Shown here in pieces: positions 6,292 to 37,148 of a DNA stretch of 64,000 nucleotides. The translations under genes were made by a program, and so were the position numbers. Under the pieces are notes generated by a model, which was not told where the DNA came from, made no database searches, and saw only the letters and a list, made by a program, of their open reading frames with translations. This DNA comes from a virus: the IMG/VR virus record IMGVR_UViG_3300017929_000004, positions 5,566-69,565 of that record; one strand, written 5' to 3'. Numbering within the stretch: position 1 is the stretch's first letter; each line of letters starts with the position of its first letter.

Positions 6292-6297
6292 AGTCGC

Positions 6298-6655: not shown

Positions 6656-6683
6656 AGTATAAGCGGCTTATGGCATTTGTCAA
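6656..6683 (-). promoter_or_regulatory. Sigma70-type promoter (leftward)
   Basis: TTGACA-16-TATACT. Confidence 0.7.
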
Positions 6684-6887: not shown

Positions 6888-7193
6888 ATGAGAATGACAC
6901 TGAGAATACCAGAAGAGATTTACAATGGCTTGGTTGAGCGGGCGAAGGTAGACCGGCGGTCGGTCAACGCTCAGGTGGTCCACGTCGTGGCGCTCTACCT
7001 AAAAGCTAAGGGAGAACCGACGGAGAAGCCCTCGCTGATGGCACCGCAGCGCGCGGAACCGGCGCCAGCGGCGAATCCAGTCGGCGGGTCCTGGCTGCAG
7101 GATCTCGGTCGACTGCGCCAGTTCCGGGAAATGCGGAATCGGGACCCTAACTCCGAAGCGGAATGGGAAACCTTCAAGCGCAAGGGATATTGA
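6888..7193 (+). CDS. Arc-family ribbon-helix-helix DNA-binding protein
   Basis: MTLRIPEEIYNGLVERAKVDRRSVNAQVV pattern; TTGACG at 6853; probably leaderless. Confidence 0.8.
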   Translation: MRMTLRIPEEIYNGLVERAKVDRRSVNAQVVHVVALYLKAKGEPTEKPSLMAPQRAEPAPAANPVGGSWLQDLGRLRQFREMRNRDPNSEAEWETFKRKGY

Positions 7194-9277: not shown

Positions 9278-9736
9278 ATGAAAACATGCTACACCTGCAC
9301 GGCTGAAAAACCGGAGGCCGAGTTTTATAAAGGGCGGGGGGAGTGTAAGGTTTGTGCGAGGGCTCGGAATTTGAAGTGGCTGGCAGAGCATCCGGATAGG
9401 GGGGTGGAGTTAAAGAGGCGGTGGCGGAAGGAGCATAAGGCGGAAATCCGAGAGTACTACCGGAACTGGTACGACACAAAGGGGAGGAAACGGGCGAGAG
9501 ATTACGCAGAGGTGATTAAGTCTTGGGATGCGGCAAATCCCGAGAAGCGGGTGGCGCGTGACGCTTTGAGGGTAGCGATTCGATCAAGGAAGATAGTTCG
9601 TCCGAAGCTATGCCAAGGATGCAGAAAGGCGCTTAGGCTCCATGCGCACCATAGGGATTACATGAGGCCGCTTGAGGTGATTTGGCTGTGCGCGAGTTGC
9701 CACAAGCTGGAGCATACCAACAGAAAGACGAAGTGA
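9278..9736 (+). CDS. HNH-like endonuclease
   Basis: KTCYTC..CKVC; CQGC..HAHHRDY.RPLEVIWLCASCHKLEH. Confidence 0.8.
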   Translation: MKTCYTCTAEKPEAEFYKGRGECKVCARARNLKWLAEHPDRGVELKRRWRKEHKAEIREYYRNWYDTKGRKRARDYAEVIKSWDAANPEKRVARDALRVAIRSRKIVRPKLCQGCRKALRLHAHHRDYMRPLEVIWLCASCHKLEHTNRKTK

Positions 9737-9743: not shown

Positions 9744-11966
9744 ATGGGGAGTGGAAAGGTAAGCGAGATGAGCGAGGGGCTGGACGCGGTTGAATGGCGG
9801 GGTTGTTACGGTGGGGTGCGGGGGGACTTGTTCACGCGGGAGAGCAATGCGCATCCAGCGAAGATGGCGGTGGGGCTGTGCTACCGGATATTCGGGTACA
9901 TGGAAGAGCGGGGGTGGGTGAATAAGGAGACTCAAATAGTTGTTGACGAACTAGGATTACATCACCTAAAATCTCTATATGACCACTGCACTCATCTGTC
10001 CTACATGCCTGAAACCATTCAAAGCCAAGGACACAGAACAGGTATACTGCTCTCAGAAATGCTGGTATCTTCGCAACGGCACCAAGGAAAAAACCTGCCA
10101 GGTCTGCCGAAAACCATTCAAAGCGAGCAATCGAAATCAGAAGTATTGCTCGATGAACTGCAGATCGGTTGTTCTGCTGGGCAACAAATTCGCGAAGGGG
10201 AATCCCCCGAACCACTCAACCTTCAAAGTAGGAGAGCATACCGGAAAGAATCATCCCCGCTGGAAGGGCGGGTGGAGGGAGCACCGAGGGCCTGGTTGGA
10301 AAAAACAGAAGTCTCTACTACGAGAGAGAGACAAGAACTGTCGAATCTGCAGGGTGAGTCCCATCCTTGCCCATCACATAATCCCTTACCGCGAGACCGG
10401 GAATTCTTCACTAACAAATCTCCTCGGCCTGTGTTTCAAATGCCATACCAAGATAGAGCACGAATACGAAAAGAAACTCAAAGAACTCCATGTAGTTTGG
10501 AGGAAGGACTTATTGAATCGTTGCCAACCTGCCCTCTCTGTCGAAATTTAATTCTTCCTACTGAAGGTTCAAGAATCCTGATTCAAGCCTCTAGAATATG
10601 TGAACCCATGGCGGGGATCGGGACGACGCTGGTGGTGGGGGCGAGTTTAGGGTACCAGACGGTGGGAGTGGAGTTGGAGCGGCATTTTCTGGAGATGGCG
10701 GACGCCAATGTGGAGAAGTTGATGGCGAAGATGCCGGGGGCGCCGCGACCGGTGGTGCTGGGAGGGGATGCGAGGAGTCTGATAAAGGTGTTGGCAGAGG
10801 CGCAGGTGGCTGGGGTGTTGACGAGCCCGCCGTACGCGGGAAACATTGGCGGGGACAGCGGGATAGACGCATCGCTAGAGAAAAAAGTCAGTGGGGTACA
10901 CGCGCAGCACAAGATCCGCCAAGACTACGATGGTGTAGTAGCGTCGCCACCCTATGCGGACCAGGATTTAACAGGGGCTCGGCAGTTCCGGTCGAGATTC
11001 GAGCCGGCCCGGCCCGAGGCGAGGGCGAACCCGCATGAGGGATACGACGGCGTGGTGTCGAGCCCGCCATTTTCCGACCAAGCTGCGGCGGGCGGGGGAT
11101 GCGGCATTGCCAAGCGGGGATACGGCCCGGGGGGAACGGATAAGGTAGGCGATCGGGCGTACATGGCGCGGACGCAGGGAACATCGGACGGTCAGATTGG
11201 GAATCTCAAGGATCCGGCCGGCGACATTGACGCGGTACTGACAAGTCCACCTTGGGAGCGTGGCGCCCGCGGCGGGCAGCAGGGATGGTCGGACCCGGAC
11301 AAGGCGGCGGCAGTCGCGGCGGAGAAGTATAAGGACGGCAGCCGGAGGGGGCATCGCGCGTCTGCGGAGGCGATTGCGGCTCAGATGCGGCGCGACGAGA
11401 AACGAGTCTATGGCGAGAGTGAGGGGCAGATTGCAAACCTTCCATTCGGCATGATCGATGCTGCTTTAAGCAGCCCGCCCTATGAGGCAAGCTCGCAGTG
11501 CCAGGACAAGAACTTTAGGAGAGACGACCGTTTTAGGGAAGGAGATTGGCACCAACAAAAAAGGAATAATCCTAACTTCCCAGAATCCCCTTCCTCTGAT
11601 GGTCAAATAGGAAAAGAGCGTGGAGACACCTACCTAAGCGCCATGCTCGCCGTGTACCGCGAACTCCACGCCGTGCTCAAACCCGGGGGCGTCTGCGCCC
11701 TGGTCACCAAGAACCCCGTGAAAAATGGCGCTATCCGCCGCCTGGACGAGGACACGATTCGGCTCATGGAAGCCGCAGGCTTCACGCTCATCGAGCGCAA
11801 GCACGCGATGCTCTCCGAAGACCTTGGCGAGCAGATGACGATGGACGGTGGCATCAAGAAAATCCAGCGCGTGCGCATGAGTTTCTTCAAGCGCCTGCAC
11901 GTCCGGAAGTACCCGGAACTTGCCGTCCTATGGGAAGACGTTTTGTTTTTCAGGAGCGCGTTATGA
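9744..11966 (+). CDS. Amino-DNA methyltransferase with five SPP(Y/F/W) repeats and an in-frame ~219-codon insertion
   Basis: HPAKM, PMAGIGTT (motif I), GVELE, five xSPPx motifs, VYRELHAVLKPGGVCALV. Confidence 0.8.
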   Translation: MGSGKVSEMSEGLDAVEWRGCYGGVRGDLFTRESNAHPAKMAVGLCYRIFGYMEERGWVNKETQIVVDELGLHHLKSLYDHCTHLSYMPETIQSQGHRTGILLSEMLVSSQRHQGKNLPGLPKTIQSEQSKSEVLLDELQIGCSAGQQIREGESPEPLNLQSRRAYRKESSPLEGRVEGAPRAWLEKTEVSTTRERQELSNLQGESHPCPSHNPLPRDREFFTNKSPRPVFQMPYQDRARIRKETQRTPCSLEEGLIESLPTCPLCRNLILPTEGSRILIQASRICEPMAGIGTTLVVGASLGYQTVGVELERHFLEMADANVEKLMAKMPGAPRPVVLGGDARSLIKVLAEAQVAGVLTSPPYAGNIGGDSGIDASLEKKVSGVHAQHKIRQDYDGVVASPPYADQDLTGARQFRSRFEPARPEARANPHEGYDGVVSSPPFSDQAAAGGGCGIAKRGYGPGGTDKVGDRAYMARTQGTSDGQIGNLKDPAGDIDAVLTSPPWERGARGGQQGWSDPDKAAAVAAEKYKDGSRRGHRASAEAIAAQMRRDEKRVYGESEGQIANLPFGMIDAALSSPPYEASSQCQDKNFRRDDRFREGDWHQQKRNNPNFPESPSSDGQIGKERGDTYLSAMLAVYRELHAVLKPGGVCALVTKNPVKNGAIRRLDEDTIRLMEAAGFTLIERKHAMLSEDLGEQMTMDGGIKKIQRVRMSFFKRLHVRKYPELAVLWEDVLFFRSAL
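9943..9972 (+). promoter_or_regulatory. Internal promoter of the nested HNH
   Basis: TTGACG-18-TAAAAT, ATG 9979 six nt downstream. Confidence 0.6.
9979..10551 (+). CDS. HNH endonuclease nested (+1 frame) inside the methyltransferase ORF
   Basis: Two CxxC..F..YCSxxC repeats, NHPRWKGG, CRIC..AHHIIPY..NLLGLCFKCH. Confidence 0.88.
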   Translation: MTTALICPTCLKPFKAKDTEQVYCSQKCWYLRNGTKEKTCQVCRKPFKASNRNQKYCSMNCRSVVLLGNKFAKGNPPNHSTFKVGEHTGKNHPRWKGGWREHRGPGWKKQKSLLRERDKNCRICRVSPILAHHIIPYRETGNSSLTNLLGLCFKCHTKIEHEYEKKLKELHVVWRKDLLNRCQPALSVEI

Positions 11967-18834: not shown

Positions 18835-19425
18835 ATGAAAAACCTGATTTTAGGACTATTGTTTGGATTGCTTTTCTCGCTGGTCGGCTTCGGGCAGGAA
18901 GCCTACGTGGTTTCACTCAAGCCAGACGACGCGATGAAGGCGAAGGCCACCTACGACAAGTTGCAGCAGGCCCAAAAGGATTGGGCCGATACCCAAAAGC
19001 ACATCGCCCTCAAGTACCTCATCGTCGAGCCCACAGACCCCGAGGCATCGGATAAGCACTATGTGGGAGAAACGGACACTGGGATTAACATCTCTTCGTC
19101 AGGAACGCTGTCGAGCGGCAACCTCGCTTTGCGGTATATAACAACGATAGGCGGAAATCAATCTGAACCCACGAAAGAGGAGATTGCCCAACAAACCAAA
19201 GAAGAGAAAGCCTACATCGAACGATTCAACCGCGAGAAGCGCCAACGCAAAGGATTCGATGGGAATTGCTCAAACTGCCTGCCGAAGTTCGAGTTTACCC
19301 ACGACTTCAAGTTCATCGTGCCTTCGAAGCCAGAGGTAAAGGCGCCAGTCTCGCCGTTCTATCTTTCGCCGGCTGCGAAGACTTTGACGACCGACGATAG
19401 TGGTAGTGCAGGCCTGCCGTGGTGA
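18835..19425 (+). CDS. Exported hypothetical protein
   Basis: Signal peptide MKNLILGLLFGLLFSLVGFG. Confidence 0.7.
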   Translation: MKNLILGLLFGLLFSLVGFGQEAYVVSLKPDDAMKAKATYDKLQQAQKDWADTQKHIALKYLIVEPTDPEASDKHYVGETDTGINISSSGTLSSGNLALRYITTIGGNQSEPTKEEIAQQTKEEKAYIERFNREKRQRKGFDGNCSNCLPKFEFTHDFKFIVPSKPEVKAPVSPFYLSPAAKTLTTDDSGSAGLPW

Positions 19426-19428
19426 CCC

Positions 19429-20118
19429 ATGCCGATACAGCCATTCTGCACGAAGATCCTCCGCGAACGCGATGCTCCCAACCTTCCGCCGCCCGAAGAC
19501 CGCCACGTTAAAGTTGCCTGCTTGGCGTTCGACGGAAAGACGATCGGTGAAATCCGCTCCGAGTTCCCGCGAATCAGCGTGCAGATGATTGGGCAGTCGA
19601 TTCGGCTGACTCGCGACGCGGTTCGCCGCGGCAAGCCCCCCGACGAGGTCCTGCGGTTTCCTGAACTCATCGAAGAACAGGTGGCGTACAAGGTAGCTCC
19701 AGGCAAGCCATCGAAGGCCAGCGCCACGACGCGAGCCCTCAAGAGCCTTTCGACGGCTCTCGTCAAGATCGAGTTCAAGAGCTTCCCCGACTTCGTGCGA
19801 AGCGTGAAGGAACGCTTTGCACCAATCGGAGTGCCGCTCATCGTGCAGAAGATGTTGGAAGGCGTCGAACGTGAAGACCCCGAAATGATCAAACTCTCGA
19901 CGCAGGTATTCGACCTTGCCCCGAAGGGTAAGGGGTTGACATTACAGCAGCAGTTCAACATTCCCGGCGGAACGCCCGAGAAGAGGCCGAACGCCGACCA
20001 CCGTGTTGCATTCTTCGAAGAATTGGTGCGCAAGAACCGCGCCAAGATTGACTCAGCGACTCCGGCAGCGACCGCAGTAATTGACGCAGAAACCGTGGAA
20101 GGCAGCGACGAAGAGTAG
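19429..20118 (+). CDS. Hypothetical protein, positional candidate for small terminase
   Basis: Immediately upstream of the large terminase; no motif recognised. Confidence 0.45.
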   Translation: MPIQPFCTKILRERDAPNLPPPEDRHVKVACLAFDGKTIGEIRSEFPRISVQMIGQSIRLTRDAVRRGKPPDEVLRFPELIEEQVAYKVAPGKPSKASATTRALKSLSTALVKIEFKSFPDFVRSVKERFAPIGVPLIVQKMLEGVEREDPEMIKLSTQVFDLAPKGKGLTLQQQFNIPGGTPEKRPNADHRVAFFEELVRKNRAKIDSATPAATAVIDAETVEGSDEE

Positions 20119-20126
20119 CGGGCCGG

Positions 20127-23100
20127 ATGGCACTCGTACAGGTTTATCAAGAGTCTGACATAGCCACAGCGGTTGAGGAACTCAACCATCTTCGGGAACA
20201 GGTCCTCTACGAGGACAAGGATGCTGACCCGTGGGAAGCGCTGTCTTCGTCGGAGCTTGAGTGGATCGACGCCGAGATTGGGAAGTGCTGCGCCGACTTC
20301 CGGTACGCCGCATACAACTACTTCTGGTTGGGACACACCAAAGATTCAATTCCTTGCCTCTTCAATCTCTGGCCTGCACAGGAACTTTTCCTTTCCATCG
20401 TCGAGAATATGTGGGCAGAGGGAGAGCCTGCATGGATAATAACGCATAAGGCACGGCAATTAGGAATCAGCACAGTTGTCGAGGCCATCCTCGCTTGGAA
20501 GAATCTTTTCTTTTCCAACCAGATTTCGATGATCATCGCGCAGGATCCCGACCAAGCTGAGCACCTTCTGAAAATCTCGCTCTACATCATGGACCACATG
20601 CCGTGGTGGATGCGGCCGATGGAGCAGTCGCGAGAATTCAAAGAGGCTATGATTCTTGAGAACAAGGACCCCTATGAGCGTTCCTTCAAGGCTGGGCTCA
20701 ATAATTGGATCATCGCAAACGGCTGCACGAAGATTTCCGCATTTGGTCAGGGGAAACCCATACATATTTTTCATGGCAGCGAATTAAGCAGTTGGCCTTC
20801 CGACCGCGCCCGAAAGATCATTTCTCAGGACATGAAGTACGCCTTCGCGAAGAAGCCAGGGTGCCTCGCCGCGATGGAGTCGAAGCCTCGCGGCATGGTG
20901 GGCTACTGGTACAATATGTGGCACGTCTTCGACGGCCAGGGGTTGAGCGCAGAGTACTTCCCCTTCTATGTGCCAGCGTTCTTCGAAAAGGACCGGCGCC
21001 TCGACCCGCCGCCAGCATGGGAGCCCGACGAAGAGGCTATCGCCATTCGTGAGAACTACTCCCTGGAATGGACACAGTGTGACGAATGCGGAACTCCGCT
21101 GCCGATGCGCTGGGGGGAAATCGAGTCGTGTGTGAAGTGTGGATCGCCGAATCATTCGCCGATCCTGCTCGACGACGCTCAACTCTACTGGTATCAGGAA
21201 GAAAAGAAGACCGCCGCCGCGCAGGGGAAGCAGGAACTTCGCGACTTCTACCAGGAAATGAGTATCACGCCGGAACAGGGGTTTCAAGCATCGGGCATCA
21301 TCGTCTTCCCCGACGAAGTGATGGCCTACCTCCAACGGACTTGTCATCCGGGTCAGAAGGGCTACTTCGATGATGCCTTCAACTGGCATGCCGAGCGGAA
21401 CTGCAAAATCTGCCACGACGACCACTTGGGGGAAGACTACCCAATGGAAATGTGGGAGCCTCCGCAAGAAGGGGCGAGGTATGTAGCGGGCGTCGATGTC
21501 GCCGAGGGAGAAGAGGAAGGGGATTACTCAGTAATACACGTTATCAAGATGGGATATGGCTTCAAGATTCCCGACAAGCAAGTGTTTGAGTGGTACGGGC
21601 ACATCGACGGTCACGAGTTCGCCCGCGTCTGCTACCTCGTCGGGAAGGCGTACAACGAAGCGATGATGGCGATTGACGCCATCGGGCCTGGGTACGGAAC
21701 GCTCGGCCTGCTCCTTCATCAATTCAATTACGGCAACATCTATCGGTGGAAGCATCTCGACAGCTTCACGAAAATTCAGAGCAATAAGGCTGGGCTGTGG
21801 ACGAATTACAAGACGCGGCGAACGATGATTACTTGGGGGATTCGCTGGCTGCGCCGACAGATTTGGGAGATCCGGTCAACGCACTTCCTCGAGGAAGCTC
21901 CGTTCTTTCAGAAGGACGACGATGACGCCAAGGCAGAGGCACTTGAAGGGCACTTCGACGACTGCGTTCCAGAGGGAACGCTTGTAACTACCTCGACAGG
22001 TCAAAAACCGATAGAAGAAGTACGAGCCGGAGAACTCGTCCTAACCCATAAGGGGAGATTTATGCCTGTCACCCACACAGGCTCCCGCTTTGAGGACAAG
22101 AAACTCATCGAAGTTATGGCCTATGGAAGACCACCGCTTCTCGTTACAGCCGAACACAAACTCTGGCTTTCGCAAAAGGAATTCATCTATTACGAAAAGG
22201 GGAAAACCTGCGAGTACCAACCGAAAAAAAAGAGATGGAATCGCCATACCAGGGGAAGGCAAACGAAGAAGGTAGTCTATTCTGATCCGAACTGGGTTTC
22301 GTGGGAGTCGTCGCAGTTGAATTTGAAAGGTAAGTATGCGACCTGTTCTGTCGCCGCAACTGCAGAAATTGAAACTGAGAGAGTTGACCTTTTCAAAGGG
22401 TTGCCAGAGAGCTATCGCATAGTCGACGGAGTGTTGACAGCTTTTGCTAAAGGGACGATGCGGGAAATACCAACGCAGCATAAGATGAAGAGGTTCGTTC
22501 CTGTTGACAAGAATTTTCTCAGAATGATTGGCTATTATTTGGCCGAAGGCGCACGGGGACTCAGTAGCATTGCCTTTGCATCGCATCGAAGGGAGTTTCC
22601 AATCCGAAACTGGCTGATTGGCTATATTAAGAGCCTCGGAGCACACGCTGGAGAGTCTAAAACCTCAGCAAACGGTTCAGAAGTTTGGTGTAGTTCGATC
22701 CCATTGAACTATTTTTTTAGAGAATTTCGGAAAAGAGAAGGGAAGCGTTTGCCCTCTTGGGTGACGCTTCTTCCCCCAGAAAAGCAAAAAGAGGTGATTG
22801 TCGGATACCTCTTGGGAGATGGCTGTTTTCGTAGAGAATCAGGCGCTATCCAATCTGCTACGATTAGCCCAGAGGCAGCCTTCCAGATTTTCAATATGGC
22901 CATGCGCTGTGGTTGGGCTTGCTCACTCATTGGCTACTCGGGACAGAATGGTCACAAAAAGCAATGGAAGATTAACTTTTCGTCGTGGACTTCCAAAGAG
23001 ATAAAGTCTCTCATTGAGCCAGAAATACTAGCCTGCAAAAGACCACTAAGCCCGTTAAGAAGGATTTCAACGGACGTTATTAAATTGGTAGATGGTAGAA

Positions 23101-23534
23101 TGTTTGGGACAATCTACAGTACAAAAGAAATCCCGTTTTGTGGAACCGTCTACAATCTCAACGTTGAGGAAGACCATAGTTTCGTTGCCAACGGAACTGT
23201 AATTTCGAACAGCATTATGGCCGGCCTCTGTGCGAATTATGCTGCACATGAGGATGACCGCGACCCGATGACGGGCCGGTTCAACCTGCCGGCGGGAATC
23301 ACGCGAAGTCGCGAGGGCGGAAACTATATCGCCACATGCGTCAAAGGTCACAAGTTTGACACTGACGACCCAAGCCAGGGCGGTCACGCAAGGTGCCCGA
23401 AGTGCAACTCATTGATTCAGGGAGCAGAGAAAAAGCCGCAGAGTGGAACGCTCGAAGCGGAGCGGCTGATAGCGATGGTTACTGGTCCCAAGGCGGAGAA
23501 AGGATTTAACATTCCCCCTTTCGACCAATTATGA
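20127..23534 (+). CDS. terL: Terminase large subunit with intein
   Basis: KARQLGIST (Walker A), IFHGSE (Walker B), YVAGVDVAEG..GDYS and HFDD/SIMA (RNase H-like nuclease). Confidence 0.93.
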   Translation: MALVQVYQESDIATAVEELNHLREQVLYEDKDADPWEALSSSELEWIDAEIGKCCADFRYAAYNYFWLGHTKDSIPCLFNLWPAQELFLSIVENMWAEGEPAWIITHKARQLGISTVVEAILAWKNLFFSNQISMIIAQDPDQAEHLLKISLYIMDHMPWWMRPMEQSREFKEAMILENKDPYERSFKAGLNNWIIANGCTKISAFGQGKPIHIFHGSELSSWPSDRARKIISQDMKYAFAKKPGCLAAMESKPRGMVGYWYNMWHVFDGQGLSAEYFPFYVPAFFEKDRRLDPPPAWEPDEEAIAIRENYSLEWTQCDECGTPLPMRWGEIESCVKCGSPNHSPILLDDAQLYWYQEEKKTAAAQGKQELRDFYQEMSITPEQGFQASGIIVFPDEVMAYLQRTCHPGQKGYFDDAFNWHAERNCKICHDDHLGEDYPMEMWEPPQEGARYVAGVDVAEGEEEGDYSVIHVIKMGYGFKIPDKQVFEWYGHIDGHEFARVCYLVGKAYNEAMMAIDAIGPGYGTLGLLLHQFNYGNIYRWKHLDSFTKIQSNKAGLWTNYKTRRTMITWGIRWLRRQIWEIRSTHFLEEAPFFQKDDDDAKAEALEGHFDDCVPEGTLVTTSTGQKPIEEVRAGELVLTHKGRFMPVTHTGSRFEDKKLIEVMAYGRPPLLVTAEHKLWLSQKEFIYYEKGKTCEYQPKKKRWNRHTRGRQTKKVVYSDPNWVSWESSQLNLKGKYATCSVAATAEIETERVDLFKGLPESYRIVDGVLTAFAKGTMREIPTQHKMKRFVPVDKNFLRMIGYYLAEGARGLSSIAFASHRREFPIRNWLIGYIKSLGAHAGESKTSANGSEVWCSSIPLNYFFREFRKREGKRLPSWVTLLPPEKQKEVIVGYLLGDGCFRRESGAIQSATISPEAAFQIFNMAMRCGWACSLIGYSGQNGHKKQWKINFSSWTSKEIKSLIEPEILACKRPLSPLRRISTDVIKLVDGRMFGTIYSTKEIPFCGTVYNLNVEEDHSFVANGTVISNSIMAGLCANYAAHEDDRDPMTGRFNLPAGITRSREGGNYIATCVKGHKFDTDDPSQGGHARCPKCNSLIQGAEKKPQSGTLEAERLIAMVTGPKAEKGFNIPPFDQL
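21963..23210 (+). mobile_element. Intein (416 aa) with a LAGLIDADG homing endonuclease
   Basis: Starts CVPEGTLVTT, ends VYNLNVEEDHSFVANGTVISN, +1 Ser; IGYYLAEG and VGYLLGDG motifs; lower GC. Confidence 0.93.
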
Positions 23535-28860: not shown

Positions 28861-29220
28861 ATGTCAGCACCTCCGAACGTCCAAACTCCGCCGCTTCCGC
28901 CCAATCTCAGGGCTCAGCAAGGCCCGATGCCCGCCATGGGCGCGACGCAGGAACCCACCGACAATCCGCAGGCTATCGTCGCGAAAATTGGCGCGGACGT
29001 TCGCAAGCTCGCCGAGGCACTCGCCAAATCCAAGGCGAAACCTGCGGCACTCGAAACCCTAAAGCAGATGATTCCAATGCTCGCTCAACTGACGAGCGAC
29101 ATTCTCGGTCCAGAGGACCAAGGGACGGCGACGCCGGCCCCACCGCCAACACCGGGAGAAGTCCTACCACCTCCGTCGCAATCGGCGGCGCCCGCTGGAG
29201 GCTATCTGCCGGGGGCATAA
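28861..29220 (+). CDS. Pro-rich hypothetical protein
   Basis: Abuts the upstream stop. Confidence 0.7.
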   Translation: MSAPPNVQTPPLPPNLRAQQGPMPAMGATQEPTDNPQAIVAKIGADVRKLAEALAKSKAKPAALETLKQMIPMLAQLTSDILGPEDQGTATPAPPPTPGEVLPPPSQSAAPAGGYLPGA

Positions 29221-29233
29221 AGGAGAAACGACT

Positions 29234-30124
29234 ATGGGCAGATTCGACGACGTTTTGAAAACCATCAGCGACGCGCAAGAGCGCGACGCCATCGTAAAGG
29301 TTCTCGAAAAGAACCCTGACTTCAAGAAGGGGATCGAAGGGATCGAGCGGCTCGCTGCCGACGGGGAGACGTACAACGTATGGTACCGTGACCCCAAAGG
29401 CTACCCCGAGTTCAAGGCGGCGCACGATGCGCTGCCAAAACTCGAGCAGGATCTCGAAGAAGCGAACCGATTGCTCGCCGAAGCGAAGGCTGGCAAGCCC
29501 GCCAAAGGCGCGAAGGAAGAAGAGACACCCTTGGACGAGATGACACCCGAGCAGATGTTGGCGAGAGTGGAAGAGAACCTGAAGGCCAAGGGGTACGTCA
29601 CCGCCGCTGAGGCGACGAGACTTGCTACTGAGGCCGCAACGACCGCCGCCGCTGGCGTGCAGGCCCGGGTTTACACCCAAGGGCTCCCAATGGTCGAGCG
29701 CATGATGGCCGTCCAAGACAAGTATCGCAAGGATTTCGGCAAGGACATGGACCGGAAGGCCTTCGGGAAGTTCATCGAAGATCAGAAGTTCTCCGACGTG
29801 GACCACGCCTACGAGGCCTTCACGCGCGAGGACTACGTCAACAAGGTCAAGGCGGAAGCCTTCGATCAGGGAGTCCTGAAGGGCACGAAGGATACGACGG
29901 AGAAACTCACACGCGAAAGTTCCGAAGCGGCTCTTCGAAGTCTGCCTGTCGATATGGGCGGAACGCATGGCTTCTCATCGCGCCCAGGGGAGCCCCCGAA
30001 GCCCGTCGCTATGTCGGACATCAAGGAAGACTACCAACTCGGACCTCGCGGCGGGTTCAAGTTGGCGCACGCTGTTGCTGCGCAGATCGCCACCGACAAG
30101 GCGGCTGGCAAGACGCAGCCATAG
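29234..30124 (+). CDS. Putative scaffolding protein
   Basis: Charged helical protein directly upstream of the capsid gene. Confidence 0.7.
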   Translation: MGRFDDVLKTISDAQERDAIVKVLEKNPDFKKGIEGIERLAADGETYNVWYRDPKGYPEFKAAHDALPKLEQDLEEANRLLAEAKAGKPAKGAKEEETPLDEMTPEQMLARVEENLKAKGYVTAAEATRLATEAATTAAAGVQARVYTQGLPMVERMMAVQDKYRKDFGKDMDRKAFGKFIEDQKFSDVDHAYEAFTREDYVNKVKAEAFDQGVLKGTKDTTEKLTRESSEAALRSLPVDMGGTHGFSSRPGEPPKPVAMSDIKEDYQLGPRGGFKLAHAVAAQIATDKAAGKTQP

Positions 30125-30168: not shown

Positions 30169-31221
30169 ATGAAAAAAGGAGGCGGCTTCATCGCGCTAAT
30201 AGCGCTTGGGGCTGTTATTATCATGGTACTGTCGTTAACTTCTTTATCCGCTTACACGAACGCCTACATCGTCCCGAAGGCGTTCAACGTAGTCTATATG
30301 AAGTCCCCCCTCTTCATTCGGGCGATGACGAAGAACAACTTCCGCTTTGAAGGTGGCAAGTTCATTCAGCAGCCCATTGTCCCCTTCAAGCTGTTGGGTT
30401 CTTCGTTTGGACCCGGCAGCCGCTTCAGCACGGCGTGGGTGAACACGGAAACCGCTTACCAAGTGAATATCAAGTTCTATATGGTGAGCGTCGTGTTGCT
30501 CGGGACGGACGGCGTGTTGAACATGGGCAACGAGGCGGCGTTAAGCCAAGTCGAACTCAAGATGTCGAACGCTTCGGCGAAGATGGGCGAAATGCTCGCC
30601 GTCGACAGCTTCCTCGCTGGCTTGTCGAACGCCAACGTCATCACGAACCTCGGGCAGGATTCCGACACGCTCTCGCTCGACGGGTTCGCGCAGTGGGTTG
30701 ACGACGGGAACAACGTCACCACAGTCGGCGGAATCACGCGCACGGATATCGGGACGACGGGCGTCGTGGGTGGTGGCAACGGCTACTACAAGGCCGTCGG
30801 CGGCACGATGCTGCTCACCGACCTCAACAGGGCCATCGCGACGACTACCTTCACCCCGGATCGCGTTGACCTGATCGTCGGGACGCCGCTGACCTGCATG
30901 GTCATCCAAGACCTCTTGCAGGGCAATCAGCGGTTCCTGCGCGAAGACACCGACATGGCGAAGGCTGGCCTCAAGGGCATCGAGTACATGGGCGCCTTGG
31001 TTGTCCCCGACAACTACGCGCCTGCCGGAGCGCTGCTCGGCATTTGCTCCGACTACTTTATGTTCTACATCTCGACGAACCCCCTGTTCCAATTCGGGTT
31101 CACAGGGTTCAAGGAAGACCAGGGGACGATCGATTACGCCGGCCAGTTCCTCTATGCGGGGAACATCGTGTACCCGAACCCGCGCACCGGGTTCTACATG
31201 GTCACGATCTCCTTCTCGTAG
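30169..31221 (+). CDS. Major capsid protein (start uncertain: 30169, 30190 or 30223)
   Basis: GGKFIQQPI, VGGITR, DLIVGT, QRF, VVPDNYAP, NPRTG pattern of HK97-fold capsids; position. Confidence 0.88.
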   Translation: MKKGGGFIALIALGAVIIMVLSLTSLSAYTNAYIVPKAFNVVYMKSPLFIRAMTKNNFRFEGGKFIQQPIVPFKLLGSSFGPGSRFSTAWVNTETAYQVNIKFYMVSVVLLGTDGVLNMGNEAALSQVELKMSNASAKMGEMLAVDSFLAGLSNANVITNLGQDSDTLSLDGFAQWVDDGNNVTTVGGITRTDIGTTGVVGGGNGYYKAVGGTMLLTDLNRAIATTTFTPDRVDLIVGTPLTCMVIQDLLQGNQRFLREDTDMAKAGLKGIEYMGALVVPDNYAPAGALLGICSDYFMFYISTNPLFQFGFTGFKEDQGTIDYAGQFLYAGNIVYPNPRTGFYMVTISFS

Positions 31222-32806: not shown

Positions 32807-33808
32807 ATGGCTGAGACGTTTCTGAGCGTTTGGCGCTCCGTACTGCAATACAACAGAAGGGTCCCGGCGACGCTTTGCAGGACATGGGTACGCCAGCGCT
32901 ACGAGCAGATTCTCGACCGTCGCATGTGGAGTTTTCAGTGGGGCCATGGCTGCTGGAACGTCAAGGCACCGATTACCGGCAACGCGACCATCGTCGCAGG
33001 TTCGAACGTTTTGACCTTCGGCGCGGGTGTGCTTCCAGGCGACAAGAGGATCGTGGGTTGGGAAGTAATGATCAACGGGCAGATTCCGTACTACATGGTC
33101 GTGGATGCCGACGCGACGACGGTCACTCTCGACCGAATTTGCGTCGAGACCTCAGCGTCGAACGTGCCGTGCCAAATCAGCATGGTTTACTTCATGTCGG
33201 AGCAGCCCGACTTCGAGAAGATGATTGCCATCGTTGATCGCCAAAACAACTGGCAGTTCCGGCTGAACGTGTCCATCGAAGAGATGGATAACGACGACCC
33301 GCAGCGTTCGACGGTCTCCCCGCCGACGCGCATGGTGCCCCTGGGGTTCAACGACCAGTACCTCGCCATGATTCCCGACAGTGTGACGGACTGCTACGGA
33401 CAGGAAAACGATTCGCAGTCGCAACCGTTCTTTGAGACTTGGCCCAGGGCGAGCACCGCGCAACCTTATCCTTATGTGTACAAGAGGAAGACGCCGAGCC
33501 TTGCGAACGATGGCGACCCCCTGCCGGGGTTTATCCGCGGGCGCGCGTTGTTCGAAGGGGCGCTTGCCGACCTGTGCAGTTGGCCCGGAACGCAGACGAA
33601 CCCTAACCCGGCGAATCCCGTGCAGGCCAACGTGCATGAGCGGAAATTTGAGGACGCGGTGTTCGACATGATTAACCGCGACGAGCAAGTGTCGCTGCGG
33701 TCGCTGACATGGGCGCGAAGCTACCGTAACTTCGCGTTTGCGGAGTTAGAGAGCGCCCGGTATCGTCAAAGTCACGTTGACGCGTCGCTGGTGCTGCAGA
33801 AATTCTAA
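32807..33808 (+). CDS. Putative head-tail adaptor protein
   Basis: Position; RRMWSF and ETWP..YPYVY motifs. Confidence 0.6.
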   Translation: MAETFLSVWRSVLQYNRRVPATLCRTWVRQRYEQILDRRMWSFQWGHGCWNVKAPITGNATIVAGSNVLTFGAGVLPGDKRIVGWEVMINGQIPYYMVVDADATTVTLDRICVETSASNVPCQISMVYFMSEQPDFEKMIAIVDRQNNWQFRLNVSIEEMDNDDPQRSTVSPPTRMVPLGFNDQYLAMIPDSVTDCYGQENDSQSQPFFETWPRASTAQPYPYVYKRKTPSLANDGDPLPGFIRGRALFEGALADLCSWPGTQTNPNPANPVQANVHERKFEDAVFDMINRDEQVSLRSLTWARSYRNFAFAELESARYRQSHVDASLVLQKF

Positions 33809-34749
33809 TGACTAGGCTTCGCCAAATTCGCTTTGCGCTTTGCCTCGCGGCGCTGGTATGTCTCCCAAGCGTGGCAGTTAGGGCAAAGAACTTGAAGGTT
33901 GGAGCGTTCGTTATTCCAGGGGACTCCATCCTTGTGGTCAACTTGGAGAACTTCGGGATGCTCTCTCCATCCGCAGATTTCACAGCATTCAAGCCGCCCA
34001 GCCTGCTTCATGGTGTCCCTGTATCCGTTTTTTCTTCTGCCGCCTCTGGATCGTTGGGAACAGCGATTGGAGCAGTACTTCGTCGTGCTTTTACTTATAG
34101 TGGCAGACTCGTATGGATTTCCGCAAACTTGGCAGACATAAGTTCTAAACTGCTTGGAAGCCCAAGATCCCTTGCATTCATTGGAACAAAAATTCGAAGT
34201 GCGTCCTGGCTGAACCTGCCTACGATAAATGATGCCACAATGCTTGCAGGTGCGTTTGATACTCAGAGTGCTGGCTGCTCGTCTCGCGATGTCCGTACAC
34301 TTACGACTGCACCACTTCCTAGTTTCGAGTTGGCAAGCAGGGACATGGAAGGAGTTTCCGCAGATTGGGCATGTGATGTCTCCCCCAGTCTTTTGGGGTC
34401 GGCAAGCCCTGTCCTTTTTAGAACTAACGCATTTTCTGCAGATGCTAGGAGATCCGCCGTGCAGAGCGGAACTATCCTTCCGGCGCCTGAAGTGGGAACC
34501 ACACTGCGAGCAGATTACGTCTATGGACCATACAAGTTTCTTGTAACAAGACTTGGAGCAGCAGATCGAGACTGTCGCTCGAAGAGGGCTGACCGTGTAG
34601 GAGCGACCACAGAAAGAGCAGGACTTGGTGACTCTATTCGACATCCGATGGGCATAGGAGCAGGCGATGGAACAGAATCTCGCCACTCCATTTTTCCTTG
34701 GGCCTGCACGAAACTCTTTTTTGCACCATTCACAGGGTTTGATTTCCAT
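33805..34749 (-). CDS. HNH endonuclease with multiple Zn-finger repeats, antisense to the late operon
   Basis: About six CxxC..CSxxC repeats; CEICG..LQVDHKDG..NNERSNLQVLCPNCH. Confidence 0.9.
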   Translation of the reverse strand: MEIKPCEWCKKEFRAGPRKNGVARFCSIACSYAHRMSNRVTKSCSFCGRSYTVSPLRATVSICCSKSCYKKLVWSIDVICSQCGSHFRRRKDSSALHGGSPSICRKCVSSKKDRACRPQKTGGDITCPICGNSFHVPACQLETRKWCSRKCTDIARRAASTLSIKRTCKHCGIIYRRQVQPGRTSNFCSNECKGSWASKQFRTYVCQVCGNPYESATISKSTTKYCSNRCSQRSRGGRRKNGYRDTMKQAGRLECCEICGWREHPEVLQVDHKDGVPWNNERSNLQVLCPNCHAWETYQRREAKRKANLAKPSH

Positions 34750-34779
34750 GGCAATTTCACCTCGGAGGTAAGATCATGA
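33808..34779 (+). other. Sense-strand filler ORF over the antisense HNH, coupled at both ends
   Basis: TAATG overlap upstream and ATGA overlap downstream; 323 stop-free codons. Confidence 0.45.
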
Positions 34780-37148
34780 AAAAGATTATCACGCTACTTG
34801 GATTGCTGTCAATCCTATTAGTTTCGTTTCCATCCACTTCTCTCGCAGTTTCGTCTATTTCGGGCACAATTACCGACCCCGCAGGAGCAGCGTACGCAAA
34901 CGGAACCTACGAATTTACCTTCATCGGTGGGCCGGGTGGGGTCAACATCGGGACTGGTGAAAGTGTTGCCCGGGTGGCTGGAGCGCTGAACGGCTCTGGT
35001 GCCTTCAGCGGCGTGACGCTGGGCAATACCGACATCCTGGGTGGAGGGTCGCGCTGGCAGGTAAAGATTTGCGCTGTCAACGGCCAGTGTTTTACGACCC
35101 TCATCAATGTCACGGCCTCTACGTCGAGCCTTTCGACGATCTTGCAGGCTGCGGCTCCGCTTCTGACGGGCGCTTCGATGAGCGGGACGGCGGCTGCCAA
35201 CAGCACCTTCGCGTTTGCGAACTACACCAATGCGTGGACTTGGGGCGCTGCGACGGGGGCCTCGACGAACCCGTTTACGCTGACCGACACGACACTCAAC
35301 ACTGGAACCGGCTACCTCGAAAAGGTCATTACTACAGCCGGTTCGGCGCTGGGTGGATTCCAAGTGGTCTGCGGCAATCAGGCTAGTGCTGCGGCTCCAG
35401 CAAATGCTCCAGCTTGCGTTACTCTGACGGCTGGCAATGGTGGAGTATCGACCGTAGCTGGAACCCCTGGTAGTAACGGTGGAACCATTACCAAAACCAC
35501 GGGGACTGGCGGCGCGGGTGCCGCGACGGGCACCGGCGGAAACGGTGGTGAGGGCGACTTAATCACCGGAAACGGCGGCGCTGCGGCGGGCGTCGGGTCA
35601 CTCGGCGGAAACGGTGGTCTGATTAAACTCTTGGGTGGCACTGGTGGTGGAACTGTCAACGGCGGAGTCGGTGGAGCGTTGACGATGACAGCTGGCCCTG
35701 GTGGAAACGGTTCGACCACAGGCGGGACTGGTGGAGCGTTGACCCTCGGGTCGGGCGCGGCTGGAACCGGCGGAACCGGAACGTCTGGGGCGGTTGCCCT
35801 CAAGTCAGGAGCAAGCACGGTTCTGGGCGTTACAGGCTTGGGCGCAATCACCATGGCTTCGCCGGGAACCAATCTGACGAACGAGTTCCTCTTCACTGGC
35901 ACGGCACAGTCGGGCACTCCGGCGAACAGTGTGTTCAGCGTGGTCGATACTACTGGAAACACCACGACTGGTCCGCTGCTTGACGTTCATACCGTTGGGA
36001 ATTCGACAGCGCTCCCTGTGCGAATCACCGCGCAAGGAAGCACTGTCGGCGTTCAAATGAGCGCGGCTGGTGTGCTCTCGCCGATCAGCACCGGTAAAAT
36101 CGCTCCCCGGTGGAACGACGTAACGGCGGCTGGCGCTGCTCAGAGCATCGCCAACACGATTTACACCACGGCGATTTCTCATACGAATCCGGCGGGGGCG
36201 GCTGACGCCATCACCTTCAGCATGGGCACCGCAACTTCGACGAGCAACCTGCTGACGCTCTCCGACGGTGCGGCCAATACCGGAACTGGCTACCTCTTGA
36301 ACCTGTCGCATGGTGCGGCCTCACTTGCCAACGACCTCAAGATTACCGCCGCAGCGCAGACTGGTTCGCCTTCGAATTCTCAGATTAACATTCTAGATAC
36401 AACTTCCAATACGAACACCGGCCCGCTGGTCAACATCCACACGGCGGGCAGTTCGACGGCTCTCCCGATTCAAATAACGGCAGTGGGAACCGCCAACGGC
36501 GTCCAGATGACCGCCGCTGGCTTGCTCCAGAAAATGGGGAGTGGCAGCATCAAGGCCGACGCTTCAACCTCTCCGACGGATGGCTACTACTGGGTGCCGT
36601 TACAGGCTTGCGGTATGCAGTTGACGACCGGCGCTCTGGCTGCGGCCTCGACGGTTGGTCAAAACCCGGGCATCCAGTACGTGGCTGCAAACAACATGGT
36701 GCTCGGAGTTACAACTTCTGGTGCCGCAAGTGCGGTGACAATCGACTGCGACATCTCGCCACCGAGCCGCACAACCTCGACAAAGGGAATCACCATCACC
36801 GGCGTCAGAATGTTCTACGGCTATCAAGGTGCCGCAACTCCGAACAGCATTGCCGGTCCAACCTTCTCGCAGGTAGTTTATAGTGCCGCTGCTGGAGCGG
36901 CGGCAGCCACACTGACGACGGTTGGTGGGGCGCTTACAACCACCGTTGGTACCAGCCATAGCACACCGGGTGCTGTGACCACGACTGGCCAGTGCTACTC
37001 GGAATTGACGACCTTCGGAACACCCTTCGTCGCGAATAGCGACCTCACACGGTACACGGCAGAATTGGTCATCAACCATACGACCGCTTCTTTGGCAACG
37101 TATCAACTCTGCGGAGTGGCCGTGGACTATACTAACGGCGTTTTGTGA
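34776..37148 (+). CDS. Signal-peptide-bearing Gly/Thr-rich fibre/adhesin-like protein
   Basis: MKKIITLLGLLSILLVSFPSTSLA; GGNGG glycine-rich block; internal duplicated ~60-aa unit. Confidence 0.75.
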   Translation: MKKIITLLGLLSILLVSFPSTSLAVSSISGTITDPAGAAYANGTYEFTFIGGPGGVNIGTGESVARVAGALNGSGAFSGVTLGNTDILGGGSRWQVKICAVNGQCFTTLINVTASTSSLSTILQAAAPLLTGASMSGTAAANSTFAFANYTNAWTWGAATGASTNPFTLTDTTLNTGTGYLEKVITTAGSALGGFQVVCGNQASAAAPANAPACVTLTAGNGGVSTVAGTPGSNGGTITKTTGTGGAGAATGTGGNGGEGDLITGNGGAAAGVGSLGGNGGLIKLLGGTGGGTVNGGVGGALTMTAGPGGNGSTTGGTGGALTLGSGAAGTGGTGTSGAVALKSGASTVLGVTGLGAITMASPGTNLTNEFLFTGTAQSGTPANSVFSVVDTTGNTTTGPLLDVHTVGNSTALPVRITAQGSTVGVQMSAAGVLSPISTGKIAPRWNDVTAAGAAQSIANTIYTTAISHTNPAGAADAITFSMGTATSTSNLLTLSDGAANTGTGYLLNLSHGAASLANDLKITAAAQTGSPSNSQINILDTTSNTNTGPLVNIHTAGSSTALPIQITAVGTANGVQMTAAGLLQKMGSGSIKADASTSPTDGYYWVPLQACGMQLTTGALAAASTVGQNPGIQYVAANNMVLGVTTSGAASAVTIDCDISPPSRTTSTKGITITGVRMFYGYQGAATPNSIAGPTFSQVVYSAAAGAAAATLTTVGGALTTTVGTSHSTPGAVTTTGQCYSELTTFGTPFVANSDLTRYTAELVINHTTASLATYQLCGVAVDYTNGVL
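34785..34812 (-). promoter_or_regulatory. Antisense promoter for the HNH, inside the next gene's signal-peptide codons
   Basis: TTGACA-16-GATAAT. Confidence 0.55.

What the first reader, a model, noticed from the sequence alone, without database searches (positions are those of the whole stretch)
33805..34812. Antisense HNH hidden under a sense ORF that is translationally coupled at both ends
Seen: the minus-strand HNH (33805-34749) is covered by a 323-codon plus-strand ORF that starts in the upstream stop (TAATG) and ends in the downstream start (ATGA). A small palindrome ACCTCGGAGGT (~34759-34769) offers an RBS on both strands. The HNH promoter (TTGACA-16-GATAAT) lies within the signal-peptide codons of the next gene. 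Inference: the filler ORF keeps ribosomes on the late mRNA, avoiding polarity, while late transcription silences the nuclease by antisense. Caveat: the two frames are in register, and open antisense frames are commonest in that arrangement.
Basis: partly seen in the sequence, partly recalled or inferred. Interest (0 to 1): 0.75.

Follow-up and report, generated by a model that had tools for sequence, protein, structure and literature searches.

The report
Backward endonuclease gene bridged by stop-free frame
A selfish DNA-cutting gene sits backwards between two structural genes of an uncultured peat phage, and it avoids exactly the three codons that would place stop signals on the other strand, probably so that ribosomes reading the structural-gene message can cross the insert.

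Summary
A 314-codon HNH endonuclease gene (33805-34749, minus) lies codon-for-codon under a 323-codon plus ORF (33808-34779). That ORF starts in the upstream gene's stop (TAATG) and ends in the downstream gene's start (ATGA).

The HNH is a free-standing homing-type endonuclease. Its GC is lower than the flanks, and the one related phage found carries a sense-oriented LAGLIDADG endonuclease in the same slot.

For this gene alone, the chance of a stop-free mirror frame is 5e-5 to 0.015, depending on the null. Two replicates in the same record strengthen the case:
- a second antisense HNH (695-1213);
- an out-of-frame HNH inside a methylase ORF (9979-10551, ShiLan-type).

So 3 of 3 Pfam-detected HNH genes are crossed by a stop-free frame of the surrounding operon. 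Sense-oriented endonuclease genes are not: 19 mirror stops in 622 codons versus 0 in 486 (Fisher P = 1.9e-5). None of 13 sense-oriented relatives of the second HNH has a stop-free mirror frame.

Translation, anti-polarity and antisense silencing are all untested. T4 segD, also antisense, has no such frame.

Earlier unchecked notes of this scan report the same design in at least 13 other genomes. Six literature searches found no paper on the intergenic form.

The parts
32807..33808 (+). Upstream late gene (333 aa, no family hit). Its TAA stop overlaps both the ATG of the bridging ORF and the stop of the HNH gene.
   Evidence: Orthologs at 42-67% identity. The L006 ortholog at 6001..7011 is 60% identical.
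33805..34749 (-). HNH endonuclease gene A (314 aa), antisense to the surrounding operon. About six CxxC...CSxxC zinc-ribbon-like repeats precede a C-terminal HNH motif. It has no TTA, CTA or TCA codons.
   Evidence: Pfam HNH 23.7 bits against cut-off 21.4. phrog_1271 at 1.9e-26. The HNH domain is 39% identical to T5/BF23 hegA (F-TflIV) by tblastn. Codon table. GC 0.49-0.54 against 0.58-0.62 in the flanks.
33808..34779 (+). Bridging ('filler') ORF of 323 codons, the codon-register mirror of the HNH gene. It starts in TAATG and ends in ATGA.
   Evidence: No Pfam or PHROG family. GC by codon position 0.55/0.55/0.43, against GC3 of 0.53-0.82 in phage genes. AlphaFold2 single-sequence mean pLDDT 30.7. 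Stop depletion.
34759..34769 (.). ACCTCGGAGGT, an 11-nt near-palindrome carrying Shine-Dalgarno-like sequences for the downstream gene (plus strand) and the HNH gene (minus strand).
   Evidence: Read directly. Function is inferred.
34785..34812 (-). Sigma-70-like promoter match TTGACA-16-GATAAT pointing into the HNH gene. It lies inside the first codons of the downstream gene.
   Evidence: 11 of 12 positions, the only site found in 33300-35300. A consensus match, not tested.
34776..37148 (+). Downstream late gene (790 aa) with a signal-peptide-like N-terminus. Its ATG overlaps the TGA of the bridging ORF.
   Evidence: The N-terminal 139 residues are 53% identical to L006 7867..9150.
695..1213 (-). 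Replicate B: a NUMOD4-HNH_3 endonuclease gene (172 aa), antisense to its plus-strand neighbours, with no TTA, CTA or TCA codons.
   Evidence: Pfam HNH_3 at 7.3e-13 and NUMOD4 at 1.3e-9. phrog_59 at 2.4e-41. Mirror stops 0 against 6.55 expected, P = 1.5e-4 by shuffle. P = 0.078 by phage codon usage. P = 0.021 calibrated.
704..1288 (+). Bridging ORF over replicate B. Its ATG follows the AGGAGG at 686-691, and its stop lies 17 nt before the next gene's ATG at 1306.
   Evidence: No PHROG family.
9979..10551 (+). Replicate C: an HNH endonuclease gene (190 aa) lying out of frame inside the 740-codon methylase ORF 9744..11966.
   Evidence: Pfam HNH at 6.5e-6. phrog_1271 at 3.6e-20. Host-frame stops 0 against 8.6 expected, 0 of 20000 shuffles. 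0 of 20000 resamplings. Calibrated P = 0.002.
9278..9736 (+). Control D: a sense-oriented, free-standing endonuclease gene (152 aa) that needs no bridge.
   Evidence: phrog_2340 'endonuclease' at 1.6e-28. No frame depleted of stops, P 0.10-0.81. It has 3 TTA/CTA/TCA in 152 codons.

Best explanation
A free-standing HNH homing endonuclease gene has inserted backwards between two translationally packed late (virion) genes. It has since been purged of TTA, CTA and TCA codons, or was admitted only in a form lacking them. As a result the operon's own strand carries an uninterrupted reading frame across the 0.97-kb insert.

Proposed course of events (inferred, not shown):
1. Ribosomes finishing the upstream gene at UAA re-initiate at the overlapping AUG.
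2. They translate 323 codons of a product that has no function of its own.
3. They terminate at the UGA that overlaps the AUG of the next gene.

The late mRNA therefore never exposes a long ribosome-free stretch. This would protect it from Rho-type premature termination or decay and keep downstream expression coupled.

The nuclease itself would be made from its own sigma-70-like promoter and RBS on the other strand.

What is shown: the anatomy, the identity of the nuclease, and the orientation-specific absence of mirror stops.
What is inferred: translation of the frame, and what the benefit is.
For: 1. **Anatomy.** Exact register, with TAATG and ATGA junctions. The same overlapping junction style joins at least 6 other plus-gene pairs's list: 16702/16699, 17208/17205, 37755/37752, 40988, 50271 and 52870.

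2. **Mobile nuclease.** HNH family hits and a GC dip. The orthologous slot in the only relative found holds a different, sense-oriented LAGLIDADG endonuclease, which also starts in TAATG.

3. **Depletion confined to the needed frame.**
 - A: 0 observed against 7.1 expected.
 - B: 0 against 6.55.
 - C: 0 against 8.6.
 - The other four frames of each give P 0.07-0.96.
 - This covers 3 of 3 Pfam-detected HNH genes in the 69.6-kb record. No GIY-YIG or LAGLIDADG_3 was found.
 - The joint calibrated probability is about 6.5e-7.

4. **Orientation controls.** TTA/CTA/TCA counts are 0 of 486 codons in antisense A+B. In sense-oriented C, D and the L006 LAGLIDADG they are 19 of 622 codons (Fisher P = 1.9e-5). 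The LAGLIDADG sits in the same slot at the same GC (0.51) and has 10 in 280 codons. Of 14 viral loci with relatives of B, 13 have an intact ORF. Their nearest flanking ORFs are on the same strand in most loci (mixed in three), and every one has 4-13 mirror stops.

5. **Packed operon.** Between 16000 and 63519 no gap without a plus ORF of at least 50 codons exceeds 150 nt. The apparent 382-nt gap at 63519-63900 lies inside the open-ended plus ORF 63055..63999 that the script did not count. An untranslated insert would therefore be the only roughly 1-kb gap.

6. **The product does not look like a selected protein.** No family hits, GC3 of 0.43, and pLDDT 30.7.
Against: - There is no expression data of any kind.
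- For A alone the calibrated chance is about 0.015, and 0.0097 under phage codon usage. B under phage codon usage gives only 0.078.
- TTA/CTA/TCA are under-used in ordinary genes of this phage as well, at ratio 0.59.
- Long shadow ORFs occur elsewhere in the window: 19359..20336 and 28973..29968, of 325 and 331 aa, with no family hits.
- One ordinary 200-codon gene is also fully open in register.
- No SD-like sequence was seen upstream of ATG 33808, so initiation would rest on re-initiation alone.
- The plus-strand RNA over the insert shows no marked C-over-G or pyrimidine bias that would mark it as a strong Rho substrate: purine 0.48 against 0.52.
- T4 segD is also antisense, between capsid genes 23 and 24. 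It has 13-28 stops in every sense frame, so the design is not obligatory.
- No diverged homolog in the same site and orientation was found, so conservation of the open frame could not be tested.
- The window was picked from a very large scan, which inflates single-case coincidences.
Confidence: 0.6

Rival explanations
1. Chance shadow ORF. The in-register mirror frame of a Leu-poor, moderately GC-rich gene happens to be open, and the two overlapping junctions are coincidences of a very compact insertion.
For: - In-register frames are the ones most often open.
- Ordinary genes here have only 0.59 of the mirror stops expected from shuffles.
- 1 of 35 ordinary genes is fully open.
- Shadow ORFs of 325 and 331 aa exist elsewhere in the window.
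- P for A alone is about 0.01-0.015.
- The window was selected from a huge scan.
Against: - Two further independent endonuclease insertions in the same record show the same thing, in the one frame that matters. The joint calibrated probability is about 6.5e-7.
- Sense-oriented endonuclease genes of similar GC carry about 3 such codons per 100.
- Both junctions are of the phage's normal gene-to-gene type.
Confidence: 0.15
2. True dual coding. The plus ORF encodes a functional protein of its own, for example a secreted or membrane protein given its signal-peptide-like N-terminus, overprinted on the HNH gene.
For: - A full-length ORF with gene-like junctions.
- A basic-hydrophobic N-terminus, read from the translation.
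Against: - No Pfam or PHROG family.
- GC3 of 0.43 is unlike any of the 15 phage genes tabulated (0.53-0.82).
- No confident fold: pLDDT 30.7 from a single sequence, which is weak evidence.
- The hydrophobic N-terminus is the mirror of the nuclease's Lys/Arg-rich tail.
- The bridges over B and C are unrelated sequences, also without family hits.
- The single population variant in the region (34519 G>A) is silent in the HNH and Val-to-Ile in the bridge. It was seen in one contig of depth 5 and may be an error.
Confidence: 0.08
3. Inherited relic. The HNH cassette evolved earlier inside a context that had to be translated on the other strand (an intein or an in-frame ShiLan-like insertion). It kept its stop-free mirror frame after moving to this intergenic site, where the frame has no current role.
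For: - Antisense endonuclease genes inside inteins are described (bioRxiv 10.1101/2025.01.02.630785, passages read).
- This genome has a ShiLan-type insertion (C).
- L004 shows a relative of the zinc-ribbon module out of frame inside an intein-bearing ORF.
Against: - The frame here begins and ends exactly at the neighbours' stop and start, which a relic need not do.
- The frame also runs stop-free through the 27-nt leader outside the HNH gene.
- All 13 intact relatives of B are free-standing ORFs in the loci examined, most with same-strand neighbours, and every one has mirror stops. B's purge therefore looks local.
Confidence: 0.07
4. Codon or tRNA effect unrelated to the other strand. The nuclease genes avoid UUA, CUA and UCA because the host reads them poorly.
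For: The three codons are under-used across the phage, at 1.6 per 100 codons in the 18 long plus genes tabulated (ratio 0.59).
Against: - Endonuclease genes C and D in the same genome use them at normal rates: 6 in 190 and 3 in 152 codons.
- A-ending codons are otherwise enriched in A, at 1.48 times phage usage, with GGA 10 of 19 and AGA 9.
- The effect cannot explain the same-strand open frame over C.
Confidence: 0.04

Closest known systems
T4 segD: a free-standing GIY-YIG homing endonuclease gene, antisense between late genes 23 and 24 (Edgell, Gibb and Belfort 2010 review, PMC2988022; passages read)
   Same: A free-standing endonuclease gene lying backwards between essential virion genes. 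The general principle is shared: the invader must fit into the host's expression programme.
   Different: segD has 13-28 stops in each sense-strand frame and 9 in register. The review says it is flanked by terminators and has no promoter of its own. Here the sense frame is stop-free and coupled at both ends, and the nuclease has a strong promoter match.
ShiLan-type hidden HNH insertions in actinophage DNA methylase genes (Arsenault, Gosselin and Gogarten 2025, Genes 16:178, PMC11855218; abstract and Discussion read)
   Same: An HNH gene whose DNA is read without stops in another frame by the host's own translation. No intron or intein signature is present. Replicate C in this window (9979..10551 inside the methylase ORF) fits this description.
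   Different: ShiLan elements sit on the same strand, out of frame, inside a coding gene, so the open frame preserves a host protein. Element A is on the opposite strand and lies between genes. Its open frame is a separate ORF that preserves nothing but translation.
Inteins with an antisense homing endonuclease ORF: Synechocystis DnaX and actinophage minor capsid and terminase inteins (bioRxiv 10.1101/2025.01.02.630785; passages read)
   Same: The nuclease gene lies on the opposite strand of a stretch that must stay open on the sense strand.
   Different: In those cases the sense frame encodes the intein's linker within a host protein and is removed by protein splicing. Here the sense ORF has no intein or Hint family hit and has its own start and stop.
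T5/BF23 hegA (F-TflIV) and other free-standing HNH homing endonucleases
   Same: The HNH domain is 38.7% identical over residues 220-294 by tblastn. The gene is free-standing in a phage genome.
   Different: That gene lies in the tRNA region of T5-like phages. Its orientation context was not examined here. The long zinc-ribbon repeat array of A is not covered by that match.

Membership tests
HNH endonuclease (Pfam PF01844; PHROG 1271) | Sequence match to the HNH (beta-beta-alpha-metal) motif above the curated threshold. | tested here: met
   PF01844 at 23.7 bits against cut-off 21.4, residues 256-294. In the six-frame genome search, 27.1 bits, over the cut-off. phrog_1271 at E = 1.9e-26.
HNH endonuclease (Pfam PF01844; PHROG 1271) | DNA cleavage activity. 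| not testable with these tools
The ORF is intact, and CxxC pairs with a DH...N...CPNCH pattern are visible in the translation (motif assignment recalled).
Free-standing homing endonuclease gene of phages | Lies between genes, not inside an intron or intein. | tested here: met
   It sits between the stop of 32807..33808 and the start of 34776..37148. Rfam finds no intron in the window at gathering thresholds. The sense ORF has no intein family hit.
Free-standing homing endonuclease gene of phages | Sporadic presence: related genomes lack it at the same site. | tested here: inconclusive
   The only relative found (L006 = L007 = L008) has a different endonuclease (LAGLIDADG_3 at 3.5e-7) in the same slot and no HNH in its 31-kb record. 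No empty site was found.
Free-standing homing endonuclease gene of phages | Cuts the endonuclease-free allele and spreads by repair. | not testable with these tools
   Needs co-infection or in vitro cleavage.
ShiLan-type out-of-frame HNH insertion | Same strand as, and inside, a host coding gene whose frame stays open. | tested here: not met
   Element A is on the opposite strand and between genes. The feature is met by element C at 9979..10551.
Intein with antisense endonuclease | Sense frame encodes intein splicing blocks continuous with a host protein. | tested here: not met
   The sense ORF has 0 Pfam and 0 PHROG families and has its own ATG and TGA.
Translated bridging ORF (working class; not in print as far as searched) | Mirror-frame stops depleted specifically in antisense-oriented endonuclease genes. 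| tested here: met
   0 of 486 codons against 19 of 622, Fisher P = 1.9e-5. 0 of 13 intact relatives of B (most flanked on the same strand) are stop-free. Frame specificity.
Translated bridging ORF (working class; not in print as far as searched) | Ribosomes actually translate the bridge, and stops in it reduce downstream expression. | not testable with these tools
   No RNA or ribosome data could be obtained for this uncultured phage.

The most novel reading that the evidence does not exclude
Phages impose a general rule on selfish genes that land backwards, or out of frame, in their tightly translated operons. Such an insert persists only if the operon's strand can still be translated across it. 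The invader's codon choice is therefore shaped by the opposite strand, producing 'ribosome bridges' whose protein product is irrelevant. This record shows three forms of one rule in a single genome: two antisense intergenic inserts and one out-of-frame intragenic insert.
Probability: 0.5. Interest if true: 0.75.

Novelty: new variant of a known kind. Interest (0 to 1): 0.62.

Why it matters
If the bridge is real, a mobile gene's synonymous codon choice is being selected by the strand it does not use, and for translation as such rather than for a protein. That has several consequences:

- It would be a clean natural readout of how strongly uninterrupted translation matters for phage late operons (polarity, mRNA survival, coupling).
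- It would explain why long 'shadow' ORFs opposite endonuclease genes keep turning up.
- It would give annotators a rule for telling them apart: both frames are real, but only one encodes a functional protein.
- It links three layouts now treated separately under one constraint: antisense nucleases in inteins, ShiLan-type hidden HNH genes, and backward free-standing nucleases.
- It is directly testable with silent-for-one-strand mutations.

Tried and rejected
**Relatives of the locus**
- blastn of 32600-35600 against the phage collection gave no match.
- The HNH protein in IMG/VR gave only 4 distant loci, at 24-57% identity over short segments and none in the same context.
- The upstream protein alone in IMG/VR gave nothing.
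- A 12-sequence alignment of that protein was run against JGI metagenomes, IMG/VR and GTDB genomes. It gave one relative contig, found twice, and nothing in the genomes.
- A capsid alignment against IMG/VR and GTDB genomes gave the same contig and nothing else.
- Conservation of the open frame in diverged copies therefore could not be tested.

**Expression and population data**
- No RNA holder was listed among the 24 runs returned.
- Contigs of 4 runs laid on 31000-37500 showed a nearly clonal population. There were 8 variant places in 6.5 kb and one in the HNH, from a single contig of depth 5. That is too few for a selection test. Several bins had no cover.

**Sequence features that gave nothing**
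- Rfam at gathering thresholds found no intron anywhere in the window.
- Base composition of the plus strand over the inserts showed no clear Rho-loading signature.
- An AlphaFold2 single-sequence model of the bridge product gave pLDDT 30.7. That fits a product without a fold, but single-sequence models are often poor.
- Pfam on the two methylase pieces around insert C did not detect the SAM-binding motif I read at the junction. The split-motif reading rests on recall, and the insert borders (about 9948-10635) are approximate.

**Public phages**
- Three tblastn hits with no annotated feature under them were inspected: Kremar, iF6 and RN05-S. The Kremar and RN05-S matches lie on the same strand as their annotated neighbours. 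The iF6 and RN05-S matches sit among tRNA genes. None was informative.
- No orientation-stratified survey of the whole phage collection was possible with these tools.

**Considered and rejected**
- That the plus ORF is the real gene and the HNH a shadow: rejected by the family hits of the HNH.
- That insert C is a group I intron or an intein: no Rfam hit and no intein-like ends in the translation.

**Literature**
- Six searches found papers on antisense nucleases in inteins, ShiLan elements and T4 segD. None of the listed titles or abstracts describes a translated bridge over an intergenic antisense endonuclease gene.
- Supplementary files were not consulted. Those of the two Gogarten-group papers might list further layouts.

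Full report
**What the window is**

The window is bases 5566-69565 of a 69.6-kb linear IMG/VR virus record estimated 72% complete. From about 16 kb to the end it is one long plus-strand array. It includes a terminase-like gene (20127..23534), a major head protein (30169..31221, phrog_9953 at 8.8e-13) and large unassigned virion-type genes. Near-identical DNA is held by 24 listed runs labelled peat or wetland metagenome. The contigs of four of them differ from the window at only 8 places in 6.5 kb.

**Observation**

- The minus ORF 33805..34749 encodes 314 aa.
- The plus ORF 33808..34779 encodes 323 aa in exact codon register with it.
- The plus ATG overlaps the TAA of the upstream gene 32807..33808.
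- The plus TGA lies within the ATGA that starts gene 34776..37148.
- The HNH stop also overlaps the upstream TAA.
- The 26-nt spacer holds ACCTCGGAGGT (34759-34769), which gives a Shine-Dalgarno-like sequence in both directions.
- A TTGACA-16-GATAAT match (11 of 12) points into the HNH gene from inside the first codons of the downstream gene.

**What the minus gene is**

It passes the Pfam HNH threshold (23.7 bits against 21.4) and matches phrog_1271 'HNH endonuclease' at 1.9e-26. Its HNH domain is 38.7% identical to T5/BF23 hegA (F-TflIV) by tblastn. Upstream of the HNH motif the translation shows about six CxxC...CSxxC repeats. GC falls to 0.49-0.54 over the gene, against 0.58-0.62 on either side.

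One related phage contig was found (L006 = L007 = L008). Its capsid protein is 80% identical, its upstream-gene ortholog 60%, and the N-terminus of its downstream-gene ortholog 53%. In the same slot it carries a LAGLIDADG endonuclease on the sense strand, which also starts in a TAATG overlap. The slot is therefore a landing site for homing-type endonuclease genes, and the HNH is best read as a free-standing one. No empty site was found.

**Is the open plus frame more than chance?**

In register, plus-strand stops can only come from TTA, CTA and TCA codons of the HNH. It has none among 10 Leu and 35 Ser codons, although A-ending codons are otherwise common in it (GGA 10 of 19, AGA 9). The three trinucleotides occur 15 and 9 times in its other two frames.

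Three nulls were applied:
- Shuffling third positions within degeneracy classes expects 7.1 stops, P = 5e-5.
- Drawing codons from this phage's own usage expects 4.4, P = 0.0097.
- The shuffle was calibrated on 35 ordinary plus genes. In register they have 211 stops where the shuffle expects 359 (ratio 0.59), so the shuffle is too generous. Calibrated, P is about 0.015.

One of the 35 ordinary genes, of 200 codons, is fully open in register. None of the 14 with 300 or more codons is.

**Replicates in the same record**

A six-frame family search finds three HNH genes in the whole record and no GIY-YIG or LAGLIDADG_3.

- **B (695..1213, minus)** is a NUMOD4-HNH_3 gene lying antisense between plus genes.
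 - A plus ORF in register runs from ATG 704, which follows an AGGAGG, to a stop 17 nt before the next gene's ATG at 1306.
 - Mirror stops: 0 against 6.55 expected. P = 1.5e-4 by shuffle, 0.078 by phage usage, 0.021 calibrated.
- **C (9979..10551, plus)** lies out of frame inside the 740-codon methylase ORF 9744..11966.
 - Host-frame stops: 0 against 8.6 expected. This occurred in 0 of 20000 shuffles and 0 of 20000 resamplings, and the calibrated P is 0.002.
- In each of A, B and C the other four frames are not depleted (P 0.07-0.96).
- **D (9278..9736)**, a fourth endonuclease gene (phrog_2340 at 1.6e-28), is sense-oriented and free-standing. It shows no depletion in any frame.
- The calibrated joint probability for A, B and C is about 6.5e-7.

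**Orientation controls**

- TTA/CTA/TCA counts are 0 of 486 codons in the antisense genes A and B.
- In sense-oriented C, D and the L006 LAGLIDADG they are 19 of 622 (Fisher P = 1.9e-5).
- The LAGLIDADG occupies the same slot at the same GC (0.51) and has 10 in 280 codons.
- Of 14 IMG/VR loci with relatives of B, 13 have an intact ORF; L024 was dropped. Some of the 13 look like near-duplicates.
- By a crude greedy ORF call, the nearest flanking ORFs are on the same strand in most of them. L018, L022 and L026 have mixed flanks.
- Every one has 4-13 mirror stops. The four with GC of at least 0.39 average 3.6 per 100 codons, which predicts 6.2 for B.
- Distant relatives of A in AT-rich contigs have 10 in 216 and 31 in 448 codons. 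Their base composition makes them poor comparators.

**Against generality**

T4 segD is the textbook backward endonuclease gene, lying between capsid genes 23 and 24 (review PMC2988022, passages read). It has 13-28 stops in each sense frame. The design is one solution, not the only one.

**Mechanism**

The plus array is densely covered. Between 16000 and 63519 no stretch longer than 150 nt lacks a plus ORF of at least 50 codons, and the apparent gap at the window's end is an open-ended ORF the script did not count. Stop-start overlaps are the phage's usual junction, with at least 6 others. An untranslated 0.97-kb insert would be unique in the operon.

It is established bacterial genetics (recalled, not from a call) that long ribosome-free stretches of a nascent mRNA invite Rho-dependent termination and faster decay. 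A listing-level abstract (PMC13323073) restates this for exposed nascent RNA.

I therefore favour the reading that ribosomes re-initiate at the TAATG, translate the bridge and hand over at the ATGA. The product does not look functional:
- It has no family hit.
- Its GC3 is 0.43, against 0.53-0.82 for phage genes.
- No confident fold is predicted.
- Its hydrophobic N-terminus is simply the mirror of the nuclease's basic tail.

None of this is shown directly. The plus-strand RNA has no striking Rho-loading composition. No SD-like sequence was seen before ATG 33808. The antisense-silencing idea has no evidence either way.

**Comparison with what is known**

- Element C matches the published ShiLan-type 'hidden HNH' insertion in phage methylase genes (PMC11855218; abstract and Discussion read). 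Its authors note the stop-free host frame and suggest the insert is retained as a loop in the protein.
- Antisense endonuclease ORFs inside inteins are described (bioRxiv 10.1101/2025.01.02.630785, passages read). There the sense frame is part of a spliced protein.
- Element A differs from both. It is intergenic and antisense, and its mirror frame is a separate ORF.
- Six literature searches listed no paper that describes this form.

**Earlier notes of this scan**

This scan has noted the same design before on other DNA. says 13 findings in at least 13 genomes hold my search words, and it listed 8 of them. Several follow-up notes reach the same reading. Those are unchecked AI notes, and I used them only as leads. 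They supplied the ShiLan paper, the intein preprint and the pointers to B and C.

**Verdict**

The claim that the frame is maintained is supported by in-genome replicates and orientation controls. Translation and the benefit it brings remain inferred. I classify the finding as a new variant of a known kind, namely how homing endonuclease genes are accommodated by phage operons. Interest is 0.62.

Noticed in passing
window 9744-11966, insert about 9948-10635: The methylase ORF carries a roughly 229-codon in-frame insert whose other frame encodes an HNH endonuclease (9979..10551). As I read the translation, the insert splits a VVD / PMAGIGTT stretch that resembles the SAM-binding motif (recalled). 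This fits the published ShiLan-type hidden HNH. There is no Rfam intron, and Pfam did not confirm the motif.
   Followed up: partly
L006 7011-7853 (same as L007, L008): The related phage has an HTH-LAGLIDADG endonuclease gene in the orthologous slot, sense-oriented and starting in a TAATG overlap with the upstream gene. The slot looks like a hot spot for different endonuclease families.
   Followed up: partly
L004 1812-4232 and 3500-4120: In a 31% GC viral contig, an 806-codon terminase-like ORF contains what reads like an intein. An HNH-type ORF with a zinc-ribbon module like that of gene A lies out of frame on the same strand. The host frame has 0 stops over it against 6.5 expected (0 of 5000 shuffles).
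   Followed up: partly
window 12837-12926: Rfam reports a tRNA (43.7 bits) where ARAGORN found no tRNA anywhere in the window.
   Followed up: no
window 19359-20336 (minus) over 19429-20118 (plus): A 325-codon minus ORF with no family hit fully covers the plus gene just before the terminase, and is out of register with it. The shuffle expects only 1.5 stops in that frame, so it is probably a composition-driven shadow. It is a reminder that long antisense ORFs occur here without endonucleases.
   Followed up: partly
window 20127-23534: The terminase-like ORF is 1135 aa. Its terminase matches lie in the first 600 or so residues, with extra helicase-like and unknown-family matches. It may be a fusion or carry an insertion.
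   Followed up: no
window 34776-34860 and 33808-33890: Both the downstream 790-aa virion-type protein and the bridge product start with signal-peptide-like segments. No signal-peptide predictor was run.
   Followed up: no
window 31000-37500: The phage is present, nearly clonal, in contigs of runs labelled peat or wetland metagenome from 2017 to 2021: 8 variant places in 6.5 kb across four runs.
   Followed up: partly
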